Virus record (IMG/VR): IMGVR_UViG_2925929528_000002 | Coordinates: 1 to 47,716 of that record | Direction: 5' to 3' (one strand) | DNA from: a virus | Lineage: Duplodnaviria > Heunggongvirae > Uroviricota > Caudoviricetes | Length of the DNA: 47,716 bases | Part shown: positions 6,001-12,000 of the stretch, one piece after another | Layout: every line of letters starts with the position of its first letter | Position numbering within the stretch: position 1 is the first letter of the stretch | Position numbers: made by a program

Positions 6001-9000
6001 GCAAAACTTGCAGCGATACCCGCTACCGACGATCCGATTTTTTCTACAGCGCTCCCCTGATAGACGATGTCTATATATGGGCTGTATGCAGTCAAAAGCA
6101 TAAGAACCGCGCCAGCCGGGACGGTTACCGTGATATCCGCTGCAGCAAAGGCCCCGGACCCGGGCGCGGGCTGAGCAGTTCCTACCAGCTCACCGTTGGC
6201 GCCTTTGAAAACCACCATCGATACCAGAGACGGGTTTCCCGTCGTCAGGTTAGACTTGATGCGATACACATCACCAGCGGTTACCTGTACTGGGTAGAAG
6301 GCGCAAAACTGCGCGTCGTTCACAACGGTCAATGCACCATTGGTGTTTTTCCAGTAGCGCCCGCTATAGAAGGGCAGCACTGACGACTTCGCGAGGTTTC
6401 CGGCTGTGTCAGCAGCGGTCTGGATATCAAGCGCCGCACGGTCAAAGACGGAAGCCTGCATCAGCACCGTTGACGAGTTCGGGGAATACGCGGTGATCAC
6501 CATAGACGCTGCGTTTTTTGGCACACGGAAAGTCAGGTTGGTGATTGTGGATACCGTGCCGCTCCCTGTCCCTGGATAGAACGTACCGATGAGGGTCTCG
6601 TTACTGTCAAAGAAACCGAGCAGGCGAATCTGGTTTGGCGCCCCCTTCAGCGAACAACTGAGCGTGAAGACATCCCCTGGTGCTACGGGAACACGGGCGG
6701 CCGCGAATGTGTCTGAGCTGGAAGTCAGGGCACCTGTCGAGATATTCATGTAGGTGTTTGCGATCCAGTTCAGAACTCTTTTCTTGGTCTTACTGGCCGA
6801 CAGGGCTACACCTGACTCCCGGAAAGCCTGCGCGGCTGCATAAACAGCCACAGCCGGTTCGGCATAGGTTGATATCAGCGCGCTGACTGCGGCGGCGGGA
6901 ATATCGACCTGAACCTCTGCGCGCGATGACCAGACATTATCCGAGGACATGGGAATGCCCAGACTCTGAACAGAAATCACGGTCCCTGCGGAGTCGATAA
7001 ACAAAACTGGCGCGACGGCAGCACGATACAAAAACGAACCAGACAAAATTAATCGCGAATATCCTGCCACAGCAACTGGCGCACACGCCGACCAGTTGGT
7101 GTCCGTGGTGGTCGCGATTGTCCCTGTGGAGAGCTGATAATACTGGCCGGTCCCCAGCGACGCTGGAGATACATCAACACGATCAAGATCCAACCCTGTA
7201 ATTACGGATGTGTTCGCGGCAACAGCCGCCTGAGATGGCATTTTCCGCCCGGTAGGCTGCAGCGTCCCGGCGTTATTGATCACTTCTACAGCTAACGCGC
7301 TGTCATCCGGGCTACGGTAATACGTGGTCGACCCCACCGGGATATTTGCGATATCCGCCTGCGCCGCTGCCAGTGTCATATACTGGCGACTGAGAGGGAT
7401 CAGGTTCTGCCGTGTCTCCTCTACAACAGCTGCGCCAGCTGCTGCCATTTTTTTCTTTTCCCCGCGCAGGGAATCCTGAGCATTTCCCATGCGATCAACA
7501 AACGTGTCGGCTTCGCTGTTCAGGAAATCATCATATGCAAGGGCGTTATCGTTAAGGTCCTTCATGCTGTTTGAAGGACGCGGGTTTCCGGTGTTATATC
7601 GTTGGGTCATATTTTTTCCTGTGACATATTACCTGTTTTTCTGGAATGACATTTGTATAATTTATGGGTATAATCGGACCTGTTTTGAAACTAAAAACCA
7701 TGGAGATGTATTTTGAGGATTCTTTTTATTTTATTTTTAATATTCATGTCACCCACCGTAACTTTTGCAAATAAGTTTGACGTTGGTTTTTTATCACCTA
7801 GTGGTTTAAATAAGGAGTTTGTTGATAAAGTTAACTTCGCCATGATCAATGTTTACAACGAAAATCAATTGGAAGAAAATTTAAAAATAGCCAAAAGCAA
7901 CAATTTAATGCTGTTCCTTGATCTTGGACCTTCTTTAAATACATCCCGAGACAATAATGACATTCGTGTTATTTATAAAGATTCAGAAAACATCGAGCAT
8001 ACTAAAATGCTCACCCCTTTAGATAAAAACAAACTAAGAAAACTACCCTCTCAAGAAGAATTGAAAATTAGAATAAACAAATACGTCCCGCTCATCAAAG
8101 AATACAAAAGCAACATCTCCGCTATATTTTTAGCAGACGAACCATATCTCAACGGACTCAATAAATCAGATTTAGAGTCGGTGGCAAACTCAACCAGAAA
8201 AATACTTAATGACAACAATTTAAACAACATAAAACTTGGCGTTATTTTTGCGAGCGCAATGTTTAATAAATCATTCGCCAAGAACTTAGACTCACTATCT
8301 GCCGAGTATGTAAAAACAATAGACAATCACTATAATGAAATTGTAAAAAAGAAGCAAAACAACCTAGCAACCGATGAGGAAATTGAATGGTTGCAAATAA
8401 TCGAGAGAAACAGACTAACCACATACGACTCTGCCGGGAATATCTATACTGATGGTGGAATACCTAAAGGCTTTGATATCTATAGCTTTGATTTTTACCT
8501 ATCAACAATATTGCTTGATAACTTATATCATAACGTTCCTGCTTGGTTAGCATCCCAAAAAATTGAAGACAGTTGCGATGTTTTTAATGGAAAGACAATG
8601 TGGGATATAAAATCCGAACTCAGTTTTTTCAGAACGGGTTCAATGAATACAACGCAGGATGATATACATAAAGACAAAGAAGTCCTTGATTCTTTGTATT
8701 CATGCCGTATGGGTGTTGTATTACAGTTATTAGAAAATGAAATAAAAAACACCTCACCCAATGGCGAGATAGTTTTGATTTCAGAGTCAAGCAGTAATGG
8801 TGTTATGGAATTTGACCCTCAAGGCAACATCAAAAATGGACAACCAGAAAAACTAATTGAACTTCGTGTTTTAAACGAGGTCAAGCGAGCAATTAACCTC
8901 ATGAAAGAAACAAAGCATGACAACATCACTGGGGTTATGTTCTTTTTATTTAACGACGAATATGATAAAACAATAAAAATTAACATTGGTGGAGCCGCAT

Positions 9001-12000
9001 CAATGCCTAGCGTTTTGAATGAAATTTACTCACTTAAGTAAAGTTGGAAGGGGAGTGAGAACTCCCCTTTGTCATTTCCCTATTACATCAAAAGTCACGA
9101 ATATGTTTGAATTGGCTACTACAGCACCATTGTCCGTATATCTGGCACAACCATTAATATTCTTCTTTAAAGTCGTATTTGGATATGTATTGATAGAAAT
9201 TACACGACTCACACCAGTAAAACTAGACTCTCCAAGGTCCAATCGTCCAAAAAAAACACCTTGTTTAAACAACTCAGCATCAGGTGTTATCAAAAAATTC
9301 CCATCTGAATCAGTCGTTATAGAAGTGCGCCCCCACTGCCTTACTAAACCCGATGCAAATTTTTGATAACCATTAAAAGAAATTGAACAATCAAACTTAT
9401 CATCAATGATTTTATCCAACGCTTTAATAACCTGACTATCATCATTAGGATCAAGTTCTATCCCGGCCCCTTCGACCACATTAACCAATTCACGTTGAAA
9501 TGTGTTCAGCATTTCAGCATTGATAATCGTCGGTGAAACGCCGTTAGCGACATTGCCATTAGTATATTCGCCATTTACATCAGCAGTATCTGTTGTACTT
9601 CCTACCTTTCTCATTTTTCACCTTCTTAATAAATCAGATTTATGGGATATATCCGGAGGCAATATCAAATATTCTGCAAAACTCAGGTGTAATGTCATAA
9701 ACACCTTCGTCATTAAACCCAAAATAGATATAGCCAAACTTCACCAGCGTATAGGATGGCGCCAGCGCATTAATGCGACATTCAAGCTGTCGATTCCCCC
9801 AGGAACGAAGCGGATCGCCGCAATAGGTCAACCCGGCGCGCGCATAGGAGATCGTGGTATCTTCGGCCTCCACCAGCCAGACGAATGGCCAGTCATCGCC
9901 ATTCAAACTATCGCCACAGACTGACAGCCCGGAACGGGCCTGTCGAAATTCTTTAATAGAGATGATGTAACCCATCGCCGCGGCGATGCTGATGAAGTAA
10001 CTTTTCGACTGGCCACCGGTGCTGATTAATTTCGAGACGATAGCGTTCTGTCGCTTGGCGATCGTGTCCACTTCCCCGATCGAACAGTCATCAGGCAACC
10101 CCAGCGTTTTTTCCCACTCCGTGAGCATAATGGTCGCTGTTTTAGGGAAAGCCCCTCGAAGCAGCGCCAGAGCGTCGTTATCACTGCGCTGGAAGCTGGC
10201 TGCCAGAGCACGAAGTACTGCGGCCTGAACCGCTTTCGGATCTCTGGTCCATGCCCTGCCGGAGGGAATGAGCGCCTGCAGCGCCCGGAGGTAGTCATCC
10301 GTCGTGAAAAGGCTCATGTATAGTTCACCTCGCCACGAACGGCCAGCTCCCCAATTCCCGGCTCAATATTGACAGAGGGTGAAACCAGAATGAATCCGGA
10401 TGTCCCGGTGACATCGCCTATGGCTCGGTTTAGATCAGAAAGGTAAATTTTACCTGTGCCGAGGGGATTTGCAGATTCAAACAAAACGCCGTCAATAGCA
10501 TCGGCAATGGCTGCCGTAGTCTCGCTTCCGGCATCTGATATGCCGCTAATTTCAAAATCGATGACTCTTTCAATTGGTGAGCAAACATAATTCAGGGAAG
10601 TAACCGGCGCGAGCGGGTAGATATAATCTGCAACCCTTCCTTGATCACCGGTGGCCTTAACCGCCCCCCACTCTTCCAGCTGCGAGATGCCATCTGTACC
10701 GACCGGGAAACCATGGTTTGTTTTATCACTGCCATCACACATGATGTAAATCACAACCGTCCCTGGTCCCATCCCCCGGCGCCGTATCCATGCCCGGGTA
10801 ACACCCGGAACCGCCAGAGCCCATCCACGATAATCTGTATCGCCCCCTCCCTGCGGAGGATTCTGAAACGCCAGTAATCCCCGCTGACGGAAATCCTCTT
10901 CATTCTCGATGTCGGCGCCGCCGGTAGCCGGTTCAATTAACGTAACCGAGCTGTCAATACCCGGCACGTTGGCATCCAGTGTCAGGAGCGTTCCGGCATC
11001 GGCATTTCCCCGGCTGCCACCGCCAGTAATATCCTCTGAGATATCAGGTAGTCTGGCCGTCACCGCAACAGTGGCGCTACCCGTGGAATCAATCATTACA
11101 CTGGCGTCCGTGCTGTACTGGTAGCCATCCGCACGGTTAATTACAGATCTCCTGTCTAAAACCCGACCCGGCGTACCGGTAATTTTCGCTGCCGGTGAGC
11201 GAGCCGCGGTCGCCGCTTTACGGTAGATCTGCTTCAACGCCATCCATCCGGCAAGCCATTCATCGGTTGATGTGAATGGCGTGCTCTGTCTGGCGATATA
11301 ATCCAGATAGGCATAATGCAGGTGCGCCATACCCGCGTCCATGTCGGCAAGCACCTTCAGGTTACCGAATCGTAGCAGCGCGCCAACGTTCTCCAGCTCT
11401 GCCTGCATGAACTGGCGGTTCTCGTCACGGAGCTCACTCAGTGTTTTCCGTTTAAATGGCATTATTCAGTTGCTCCCATAACCAGAAGAATTTGAACTCC
11501 TGCCAGTCCCCTGCCGGTGGCAAATACCGGATGATCAGATTCAGCCTGTCAGGGAAGACAATTTCCGATTGCGCCTGTATCTCTGCCACAATGCCATCCG
11601 ATTTCATCCAGGCCAGCGACTCTTCGGCATAATCTTCCGCTCTCATCGCCACTTCGCGAGTCAACTTTTCTCGTCGCAGTAGCCACAGTCTTGATCCAAT
11701 ATTCCGATCGTTGTCCAGGTCTCCCCACCAGCCGCGGCGATCGGTTCCTTCATAATCATCGTCAGCGCGCGCCAGCCCATCGGTAAACAGGCTAATAATC
11801 ACCGCCGTGTACATATCATTTTCTGAGGTTAAGATGCCGTTTCCGGACTGCCAGTCAGCGTGGAGGGCATCAACATTCCAGAAGGAGGAAATATCACTCA
11901 TACCTGACTCTTTGTTTTTTCGCTGGTTTTGATGCTGTCACCGGACTGAACGTTTTTAACGTCATGGTCATGATCGTTGTAAGCATCGCGCAACGCTTTG

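What the first reader, a model, noticed from the sequence alone, without database searches (positions are those of the whole stretch)
7636..9041. Independently promoted secreted-protein moron embedded in the tail module on the opposite strand
A 442-aa ORF with a clear signal peptide lies between the short fibre and the tailspike genes but on the opposite strand, in visibly AT-rich DNA. It has a near-consensus sigma70 promoter (ATGACA-17-TATAAT) and a hairpin terminator (9048-9069). This is the classic moron layout: a self-contained transcription unit likely expressed from the lysogen. The protein family is unrecognised.
Basis: partly seen in the sequence, partly recalled or inferred. Interest (0 to 1): 0.55.

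Follow-up and report, generated by a model that had tools for sequence, protein, structure and literature searches.

The report
Prophage cargo gene: exported glycan hydrolase
A Klebsiella-type prophage carries, between its two tail-fibre genes and on the opposite strand, a self-contained gene for an exported enzyme with a sugar-cutting fold from an uncharacterised family; related phages carry surface-sugar acetylases at this spot, so it probably remodels the cell-surface sugars that phages use as receptors.

Summary
ORF 7713-9041 (+; TTG start, GGAG Shine-Dalgarno) encodes 442 aa with an N-terminal signal peptide. It lies in a 34% GC island between a 180-aa short fibre and a 1068-aa SGNH-type long fibre, both on the minus strand. 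Its promoter (ATGACA-17-TATAAT, 7646-7674) is the only 11/12 match in the whole window. A 9-bp hairpin (9048-9069) fills the gap between the convergent stop codons. Orthologues keep the TTG start, promoter and hairpin, with dN/dS about 0.1.

No sequence library recognises the protein, but a confident model (pLDDT 92.6) is a clan GH-A (beta/alpha)8 barrel. Invariant glutamates sit at the ends of strands 4 (D-E-P) and 7. The family is small (104 clusters among 1.84 billion proteins) and almost always has an export signal.

In 80 related prophages the same slot holds AT3 O-acyltransferases (30), GT2 (3), a hexapeptide acetyltransferase (1) or this family (2). Each cargo type pairs with one short-fibre tip type. 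Elsewhere the family is fused to, or sits in an operon with, AT3 acyltransferases, and it occurs in O-polysaccharide clusters.

Best reading: a lysogenic-conversion cargo gene encoding an envelope-glycan hydrolase. Expression, activity and substrate are untested.

The parts
7646..7674 (+). sigma-70-type promoter ATGACA-17-TATAAT for the cargo gene
   Evidence: 11/12 match. It is the only match of 11/12 or better in the whole window, and arises in 64/20000 shuffles of the intergenic region. Both hexamers are unchanged in L036/L037 although dS is about 0.3 in the adjacent gene. The Serratia orthologue has an independent 11/12 promoter, CTGACA-16-TATAAT.
7702..7705 (+). Shine-Dalgarno GGAG, 7 nt before the TTG start
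   Evidence: Read from the sequence. GGAG and the TTG start are kept in all five orthologues.
7713..9041 (+). 442-aa exported clan GH-A-like (beta/alpha)8 enzyme of an uncharacterised family
7713..7769 (+). signal peptide, residues 1-19, predicted cut after T-F-A
   Evidence: Hydrophobic core ILFILFLIFM, Kyte-Doolittle maximum 3.5. The region has low pLDDT and lies outside the barrel.
8136..8144 (+). D142-E143-P144 at the end of barrel strand 4; E143 is the predicted acid/base
   Evidence: Invariant in 35 aligned family members. Strand 135-142 in the model. hhalign places 'ADEPYLNG' on 'SNEPYINS' of a GH17-containing protein, at low probability (23%).
8784..8786 (+). E358 at the end of barrel strand 7; predicted nucleophile (motif I-S-E-S-S-x-N-G)
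   Evidence: Invariant. Strand 352-358 in the model.
9048..9069 (.). GC-rich hairpin between the convergent stop codons (9041 and 9072); candidate terminator for one or both genes
   Evidence: -17 kcal/mol and z = -3.1 on the + strand; -14.8 kcal/mol on the - strand. A hairpin of different sequence occupies the same place in the Serratia prophage and in L036/L037.
9072..9614 (-). 180-aa short tail fibre, partner of the cargo gene in the AT-rich cassette
   Evidence: PHROG tail-fibre hits to its N-terminus. GC 0.374. It travels with the cargo gene in L001, L002, L004, L036 and L037. Short-fibre tip clusters and cargo clusters pair almost one-to-one.
4404..7610 (-). 1068-aa long tail fibre with C-terminal SGNH/GDSL-type esterase domain, divergent from the cargo gene
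   Evidence: Weak Pfam Lipase_GDSL_2 hit (E 0.003). The Serratia counterpart carries PF13472. GTS, GIND and DNLH motifs read by eye. Only the N-terminal 40-138 aa are shared with relatives.
7611..9640 (.). AT-rich island (about 34-37% GC), the swappable 'short fibre + cargo' cassette
   Evidence: Composition profile and per-gene GC. Cargo genes in related prophages have GC 0.33-0.35 against 0.50-0.55 upstream.

Best explanation
The gene is the cargo half of a swappable two-gene cassette (short-fibre gene plus opposite-strand cargo gene). The cassette sits in the receptor-recognition region of a temperate phage with a Mu-like tail, found mostly in Klebsiella quasipneumoniae.

The cargo gene is a self-contained unit with a near-consensus sigma-70 promoter, a GGAG/TTG start and a hairpin after the stop codon. 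Inferred: host RNA polymerase transcribes it in the lysogen.

The product has a Sec-type signal peptide (predicted cleavage after A19). It folds as a clan GH-A (beta/alpha)8 barrel with E143 on strand 4 and E358 on strand 7. Inferred: it is exported and cleaved, and it works outside the cytoplasm as a retaining beta-glycanase or transglycosylase.

The target is inferred from the slot and from the family's contexts. It would be an envelope polysaccharide (O-antigen, capsule or enterobacterial common antigen) of the kind that AT3 acyltransferases modify.

In the lysogen the enzyme would trim or edit that glycan. This would change the receptor recognised by the phage's own fibres and by similar phages, giving serotype conversion or superinfection exclusion. 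It would be the hydrolytic counterpart of the O-acetyltransferases that fill the same slot in related phages.
For: Layout. The promoter, start, hairpin and deviant GC are present and are conserved or re-created in orthologues. dN/dS of about 0.1 shows a functional gene.

Export. The window protein has a signal peptide.

Slot. Of 80 prophages sharing the gp48 baseplate gene, 30 carry an AT3 acyltransferase after the short fibre on the opposite strand. Three carry a GT2, one a hexapeptide acetyltransferase and two this family; 24 have no opposite-strand gene there. Each cargo type pairs with one short-fibre tip type, while long-fibre bodies reshuffle. In Serratia phage BZS1 the slot holds an Oac-like AT3 that its authors proposed as a serotype converter (PMC7556043).

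Link to envelope glycans outside phages. P0152 is an AT3 domain fused to this family's domain. Three Rhodobacteraceae loci have DegT aminotransferase, then the family gene, then an AT3 gene, in one same-strand run. The Rhodanobacter homologue sits beside wzm/wzt, glycosyltransferases and a sulfatase-family gene.

Klebsiella prophage SGNH fibres are active esterases, and prophage acetyltransferases are common (PMC13123978).
Against: There are no expression data. A consensus promoter could still be repressed or be active only during lytic growth.

The hairpin's U-tract is imperfect, and in the Serratia orthologue it points the other way.

Neither enzyme activity nor substrate is known.

The tight link between cargo type and short-fibre tip could reflect physical adjacency alone, and many IMG/VR loci are phylogenetically non-independent.

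Most non-phage homologues are lone genes in unrelated neighbourhoods, which tells us nothing about the target.

The AT3 fusion places this domain where the SGNH transferase domain normally sits. That could point to a non-hydrolytic role.
Confidence: 0.5

Rival explanations
1. It is an exported glycanase that benefits the host in ways unrelated to phage receptors. Examples are remodelling of biofilm matrix or exopolysaccharide, clearing misdirected polymer from the periplasm (as PslG or BcsZ do), or scavenging environmental glycans. The prophage merely carries it as a fitness gene.
For: The family occurs as lone chromosomal genes in Klebsiella/Raoultella, Comamonas and a freshwater metagenome contig, with no phage genes nearby. 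One member lies in a polysaccharide biosynthesis cluster. The closest folds are beta-mannanases, galactanases and glucanases.
Against: In this phage lineage the slot is filled almost only by surface-glycan modifying enzymes, each paired with one short-fibre tip type. That pairing is hard to explain without a link to receptors.
Confidence: 0.2
2. It is not a hydrolase. Instead it is an extracytoplasmic partner or alternative to the SGNH domain in AT3-dependent glycan acylation, or a transglycosylase. It would bind the acceptor glycan and complete a modification started by a host AT3 protein.
For: In P0152 and P0148 the domain follows an AT3 domain and an extra membrane helix, exactly where SGNH sits in OafA-type enzymes. 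Three Rhodobacteraceae loci have the family gene followed directly by an AT3 gene. The AT3 review lists only SGNH and alanine-racemase fusions and asks whether AT3-only proteins need partners (PMC9558356).
Against: The window encodes no AT3 protein. The invariant residues form a Glu/Glu pair on strands 4 and 7, with no Ser-His-Asp triad and no invariant His. All fold matches are glycosidases or transglycosylases.
Confidence: 0.15
3. It is a lytic-cycle helper. It would be made late, exported or released at lysis, and would strip capsule or O-antigen from debris and neighbouring cells so that progeny are not trapped (a receptor-destroying release factor).
For: It lies inside the tail-fibre region next to an esterase-bearing fibre. 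Virion-borne receptor-destroying enzymes are common in Klebsiella phages (PMC13123978).
Against: It is on the strand opposite to the late operon. It has a host-type consensus promoter and would be antisense to late read-through transcription. It also has a Sec signal peptide, so it cannot be a virion part.
Confidence: 0.1
4. It is a chance ORF or a decaying pseudogene in AT-rich DNA.
For: AT-rich DNA produces many promoter-like sites. The overall count of 9/12 matches in the region is no higher than in shuffles.
Against: dN/dS is 0.08-0.18. The full-length ORF with its TTG start is kept in five orthologues and there are 116 homologues. The model has pLDDT 92.6.
Confidence: 0.01

Closest known systems
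Serotype-converting O-acetyltransferases of temperate phages (Sf6 Oac; Serratia phage vB_SspM_BZS1 p24, an AT3 family member)
   Same: In BZS1 and in 30 surveyed relatives the gene occupies the same slot: directly after the short fibre, on the opposite strand, in AT-rich DNA and next to an SGNH-type long fibre (PMC7556043). The logic is also the same. A lysogen-expressed enzyme alters the surface glycan.
   Different: The chemistry and fold differ. Here the product is a soluble exported TIM-barrel protein with a Glu/Glu pair, not a 10-helix membrane acyltransferase. There is also no accompanying XRE-like small ORF.
Classical morons (lambda lom and bor; HK97/HK022 morons as defined by Hendrix and colleagues; recalled from my own knowledge)
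   Same: An extra gene sits between conserved late genes with its own promoter, its own terminator and deviant base composition.
   Different: The insert is a two-gene cassette that includes a structural gene (the short fibre). The slot is used recurrently by functionally related cargo rather than by a one-off insertion.
Clan GH-A glycoside hydrolases (GH5 mannanases/mannosidases, GH17, GH53, GH26, GH164, GH158)
   Different: Identity is only 8-14%. No sequence or profile hit links it to any Pfam GH family or any PDB chain. It has D-E-P instead of N-E-P, and long helical insertions after strands 5 and 6.
Periplasmic polysaccharide-processing hydrolases encoded in biosynthesis clusters (PslG of GH39, BcsZ; recalled from my own knowledge)
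   Same: An exported glycanase associated with envelope polysaccharide gene clusters, as in the Rhodanobacter and Rhodobacteraceae homologues.
   Different: There is no sequence relationship. The window gene is phage-borne and stands alone.
AT3-SGNH two-domain acyltransferases (OafA, OafB, OatA)
   Same: P0152 has the same overall architecture: an AT3 domain, an extra helix, then an extracytoplasmic domain (PMC9558356).
   Different: The extracytoplasmic domain belongs to this TIM-barrel family rather than to SGNH. The window protein has no AT3 part at all.

Membership tests
Moron (independent transcription unit inserted in a prophage late region) | Extra gene absent from, or replaced in, closely related phages at the same position | tested here: met
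   Of the 80 relatives fetched through gp48, 65 could be scored at this position. 24 have no opposite-strand gene there, 39 carry another gene on the opposite strand (30 AT3, 3 GT2, 1 hexapeptide acetyltransferase, 5 others) and 2 carry this family.
Moron (independent transcription unit inserted in a prophage late region) | Own promoter upstream | tested here: met
   11/12 sigma-70 match at 7646-7674, unique in the window. It is conserved in L036/L037 and re-created in the Serratia orthologue. This is sequence evidence only.
Moron (independent transcription unit inserted in a prophage late region) | Own factor-independent terminator downstream | tested here: inconclusive
   A stable hairpin at 9048-9069 is conserved in position. 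The U-tract is interrupted and the simple terminator scan did not list it.
Moron (independent transcription unit inserted in a prophage late region) | Base composition different from the flanking phage genes | tested here: met
   GC 0.336 against 0.51-0.54.
Moron (independent transcription unit inserted in a prophage late region) | Expressed from the repressed prophage | not testable with these tools
   No transcript data are available.
Clan GH-A glycoside hydrolase (4/7 superfamily) | (beta/alpha)8 barrel fold | tested here: met
Clan GH-A glycoside hydrolase (4/7 superfamily) | Acid/base Glu at the C-terminal end of strand 4, usually in an N-E-P motif | tested here: inconclusive
   Invariant E143 follows strand 135-142 and aligns with NEP of a GH17-containing protein at low probability. 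The preceding residue is an invariant Asp, not Asn.
Clan GH-A glycoside hydrolase (4/7 superfamily) | Nucleophile Glu at the C-terminal end of strand 7 | tested here: met
   Invariant E358 ends strand 352-358. The superposition itself was not inspected.
Clan GH-A glycoside hydrolase (4/7 superfamily) | Glycosidic bond cleavage with retention | not testable with these tools
   This needs a biochemical assay.
Any named GH family (GH5, GH17, GH53, ...), by sequence | Significant sequence or profile match to the family | tested here: not met
   No Pfam hit for 35 members. No PDB sequence hit with a single sequence or a profile. A profile search of 1.84 billion proteins finds only a closed set of 104 clusters. 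CAZy/dbCAN models were not available.
Sec-exported protein with a type I signal peptide | Positively charged n-region, hydrophobic h-region, small residues at -3 and -1, no lipobox Cys | tested here: met
   M-R, then ILFILFLIFM, then T-F-A|N, read by inspection and a hydropathy script. No dedicated predictor was available.
Phage lysogenic-conversion (receptor-modifying) gene | Alters a surface receptor of the lysogen and reduces adsorption of the same or related phages | not testable with these tools
   Only positional analogy with AT3/GT2 cargo and the pairing with fibre tips support it.
Virion structural or tail protein | Same strand and operon as the tail genes, homology to tail components, no export signal | tested here: not met
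   The gene is on the opposite strand and encodes a signal peptide. It has no PHROG tail hit, no tblastn hit in 50,697 phage records, and only weak GH5-like matches in BFVD.

The most novel reading that the evidence does not exclude
This small, unannotated family could be a new clan GH-A glycoside-hydrolase family whose natural partners are AT3 acyltransferases, as shown by fusion, operon adjacency and alternation in the same prophage slot. In prophages it would then be a new, hydrolytic route to serotype conversion or superinfection exclusion, working from the periplasm instead of by acetylation or glucosylation. The AT3 fusions would be a third extracytoplasmic partner domain for AT3 proteins, besides SGNH and alanine racemase.
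Probability: 0.3. Interest if true: 0.7.

Novelty: new variant of a known kind. Interest (0 to 1): 0.5.

Why it matters
Phage-encoded modification of O-antigen or capsule shapes serotype, phage host range and immune recognition in Klebsiella and its relatives. The known converting genes are acetyltransferases, glucosyltransferase (gtr) cassettes and polymerase inhibitors.

An exported glycan hydrolase in the same slot would add a new mechanism. It would also give a function to a protein family that is 'hypothetical' in every database.

The cassette structure, in which a short-fibre tip is linked to a matching glycan-modifying gene, suggests a practical rule for guessing which receptor a prophage fibre recognises. 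The family's fusion and operon links to AT3 proteins also bear on the open question of which partners AT3 acyltransferases use outside the cytoplasm.

Tried and rejected
Invertible fibre segment. A serine recombinase remnant at 1999-2328 suggested Gin/Hin-type switching. The search found no inverted repeats flanking the fibre and cargo genes, and the recombinase is 5'-truncated. Rejected.

Structural tail component or virion depolymerase. Rejected because of the opposite strand, the signal peptide and the lack of any phage-database homologue.

Anti-phage defence gene. No PADLOC hit.

Metal-dependent carbohydrate esterase (CE4-like barrel). Considered because of the link to acylation. The family has no invariant His, and the fold hits are glycosidases (GH-A apart from one beta-amylase).

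Sequence-level assignment. Pfam, NCBIfam, PHROG, PDB phmmer and PDB hmmsearch gave nothing usable.

Searches that led nowhere. E. coli complete genomes gave no DNA match. The afdb50 fold library was not available. P0013 could not be located. PDB sequence searches for the long-fibre C-terminus and for the short fibre were uninformative; one call failed through my own coordinate slip.

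
Full report
OBSERVATION. The region holds one long ORF on the + strand, 7713-9041. It encodes 442 aa, starts with TTG and has GGAG 7 nt upstream. The N-terminus, MRILFILFLIFMSPTVTFA|NKF, has the three parts of a type I signal peptide and no lipobox. The ORF lies between two minus-strand genes. One is a 180-aa protein (9072-9614) whose N-terminus matches PHROG tail-fibre families. The other is a 1068-aa protein (4404-7610) with tail-fibre PHROG hits and a weak GDSL/SGNH match. Mu gp48-, gp47-, gp46- and gp45-like baseplate genes lie to the right on the window, upstream of the short-fibre gene in the minus-strand tail operon.

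GC is 0.336 for the ORF and 0.374 for the short fibre, against 0.51-0.54 for the neighbouring tail genes. The AT-rich island therefore spans about 7611-9640 and includes the short fibre.

The promoter ATGACA-17-TATAAT (7646-7674) is an 11/12 match. It is the only match of 11/12 or better on either strand of the whole window, and only 64 of 20,000 shuffles of the 102-nt intergenic region produce one. The hairpin at 9048-9069 folds at about -17 kcal/mol with z = -3.1. It sits exactly between the convergent stop codons at 9041 and 9072. Its U-tract is interrupted, so its terminator function and direction are uncertain.

IS IT A REAL, MAINTAINED GENE? The identical protein is recorded as 'hypothetical protein', mostly in Klebsiella quasipneumoniae and occasionally in E. 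coli and Raoultella. Orthologues at 93% identity (IMG/VR loci L036, L037), 99% (L004) and 68% (Serratia proteamaculans prophage L001/L002) have the same length and the same TTG start. dN/dS is 0.08-0.18. Both promoter hexamers are unchanged in L036/L037, although dS in the adjacent coding sequence is about 0.3. The Serratia orthologue has a longer, unalignable upstream region that nevertheless contains its own 11/12 promoter (CTGACA-16-TATAAT). It also has a different GC-rich hairpin after the stop codon. Promoter and hairpin are thus preserved as features, not merely as inherited sequence.

WHAT THE PROTEIN IS. No sequence library recognises it. Pfam, NCBIfam, PADLOC and PDB sequences were searched with the single protein and with a 35-member profile. 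The protein was also searched by tblastn against 50,697 phage records.

The invariant residues include D142-E143-P144 directly after strand 135-142 and E358 at the end of strand 352-358. These are the strand-4 and strand-7 positions of the clan GH-A acid/base and nucleophile. A weak profile alignment puts 'IFLADEPYLNG' on 'IQVSNEPYINS' of a multi-domain GH17-containing protein. I could not inspect the superposition, because model coordinates are not exposed. The invariant Asp in place of the usual Asn before the acid/base is a real departure.

The family is small and closed. It comprises 104 clusters at 50% identity among 1.84 billion representatives, and no distant relatives bridge to other families. 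Only 18 loci turned up among 185,579 species-representative genomes. This is an extracytoplasmic family.

GENOMIC CONTEXT OF THE FAMILY. In Klebsiella/Raoultella, Comamonas and a freshwater metagenome contig it is a lone gene in unrelated neighbourhoods. In Noviherbaspirillum and in two IMG/VR contigs it lies at the very end of a prophage, next to tail and lysis genes.

In Rhodanobacter it sits beside wzm/wzt, glycosyltransferases, a sulfotransferase-like protein and a 735-aa sulfatase-family protein. In three Rhodobacteraceae loci the same-strand gene order is DegT-family sugar aminotransferase, then the family gene, then an AT3 acyltransferase, with methyltransferases nearby. One metagenomic protein, P0152 (801 aa), is an AT3 domain (PF01757, E = 2e-18) followed by a hydrophobic helix and this family's domain with all catalytic motifs intact. 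P0148 appears to be a truncated copy of the same design. A review of AT3 proteins lists only SGNH and alanine-racemase fusions (PMC9558356).

THE SLOT. I fetched 80 IMG/VR prophages that share the gp48 baseplate gene and mapped what follows it. The common plan is gp48, then a short fibre, then one gene on the opposite strand, then a long fibre and an accessory gene. That opposite-strand gene is:
- an AT3 acyltransferase in 30 loci (eight sequence clusters, all confirmed with Pfam);
- a GT2 glycosyltransferase in 3;
- a hexapeptide acetyltransferase in 1;
- this family in 2;
- other or unknown in 5.

In 24 loci there is no opposite-strand gene, and the remaining 15 loci could not be scored because a contig ended or a gene was not called. 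Cargo genes have GC 0.33-0.35 against 0.50-0.55 upstream. Near-consensus promoters (10/12 or better) occur upstream of 27% of them, against 4% of control pieces.

Each cargo cluster goes with essentially one short-fibre tip cluster, whereas long-fibre bodies reshuffle freely within a cargo type. The 180-aa fibre travels with this family across Klebsiella-type and Serratia prophages, at 74-96% and 68-93% identity respectively.

The published Serratia phage vB_SspM_BZS1 has the same arrangement with an Oac-like AT3 gene. Its authors proposed serotype conversion coupled to an SGNH deacetylase fibre (PMC7556043). Citrobacter phage phiNP has a 'serine acetyltransferase' just past its fibre genes. 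In Klebsiella prophages, SGNH fibres are active esterases and acetyltransferases are frequent cargo (PMC13123978).

INTERPRETATION. Four things are shown:
- a maintained, self-contained gene with promoter-like and terminator-like signals;
- an export signal;
- a clan GH-A-type barrel with the expected carboxylates;
- occupancy of a slot otherwise dedicated to surface-glycan modifying enzymes, plus independent links of the family to AT3 proteins and polysaccharide clusters.

Three steps are inferred. The first is transcription in the lysogen. The second is glycosidase or transglycosylase activity on an envelope polysaccharide. The third is the consequence: an altered receptor, giving serotype conversion or exclusion of superinfecting phages.

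The conserved N-termini of the short and long fibres flank the AT-rich cassette. They would allow it to be exchanged by homologous recombination, which explains the island's boundaries.

The gene is divergent from the long-fibre gene and convergent with the short-fibre gene. Late transcription must therefore cross it in antisense or restart after it. This would tend to silence the cargo gene during lytic growth, but that too is an inference.

RIVALS. Four alternatives were considered:
- a host-fitness glycanase unrelated to receptors (0.2);
- a non-hydrolytic partner of AT3 acylation, or a transglycosylase (0.15);
- a lytic-cycle release factor (0.1);
- a chance ORF (refuted).

The AT3 fusion is the main reason not to treat hydrolysis as settled.

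NOVELTY AND SCORE. The layout is a known kind: a moron, or lysogenic-conversion cassette next to receptor-binding proteins. The enzyme class in this role and the family itself are not described in any library or paper I could search. I rate it a new variant of a known kind, interest 0.5. It is a solid, testable lead for phage-host glycobiology rather than a surprise in principle.

Noticed in passing
window 668-1888 (+): Intact ISL3-family transposase gene (DDE_Tnp_ISL3, E = 6e-56, with its HTH and zinc ribbon). An insertion sequence lies at the left edge of the prophage cargo region.
   Followed up: partly
window 1999-2328 (-): Only the C-terminal 109 aa of a serine recombinase/invertase remain (Resolvase positions 92-144 plus HTH_7). 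The 5' part is missing where a second AT-rich island begins. No inverted repeats define an invertible fibre segment.
   Followed up: partly
window about 2330-4000, including ORFs 2468-3349 (+) and 3361-3678 (-): A second AT-rich island (GC 0.33-0.36) downstream of the long fibre. It holds a 293-aa DUF6236 protein on the + strand (E = 1e-23) and an unassigned 105-aa ORF, so it is probably further cargo. Neither ORF has a PADLOC hit.
   Followed up: partly
window 4404-7610 (-): The long fibre shares only its first 40-138 aa with relatives, while its body differs from locus to locus. Its C-terminus shows SGNH-like motifs (GTS, GIND, DNLH), but Pfam scores it only E = 0.003 and no PDB sequence matches.
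   Followed up: partly
L035 10001-12406 (protein P0152): A fusion of an AT3 acyltransferase domain with this TIM-barrel family, an architecture not listed in the AT3 review. P0148 looks like a 5'-truncated copy (PMC9558356).
   Followed up: partly
L023 1298-4946; L024 6746-10392; L028 4-2140: In Rhodobacteraceae the family gene lies between a DegT-type sugar aminotransferase gene and an AT3 acyltransferase gene on one strand. The stop-to-stop reading frames overlap, and large methyltransferase genes lie nearby.
   Followed up: partly
L040-L119 (80 IMG/VR prophages), slot after the short fibre: An 87-95-aa ORF (cluster c11, 18 members) accompanies many AT3 cargo genes. It is about the size of, and in the same position as, the 90-aa XRE-family gene p25 of phage BZS1, though no alignment was made. 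It is absent next to the GH-like cargo.
   Followed up: no
window 7631-7639 and 7680-7688 (+): The direct repeat ACCTGTTTT brackets the promoter. Only the second copy is kept in L036/L037. It could be a regulator site or chance.
   Followed up: no
window 1-569 (-) and 3869-4302 (-): Two pairs of small adjacent ORFs look similar to each other by eye (MGFPSPASDYVEGRLTV... against MVGSFLSPTADYIEQRLTV..., and two ORFs of about 80 aa that share an ...ANxWIE... stretch by eye). This suggests a duplicated two-gene unit on either side of the IS and AT-rich island. Pfam finds nothing.
   Followed up: no
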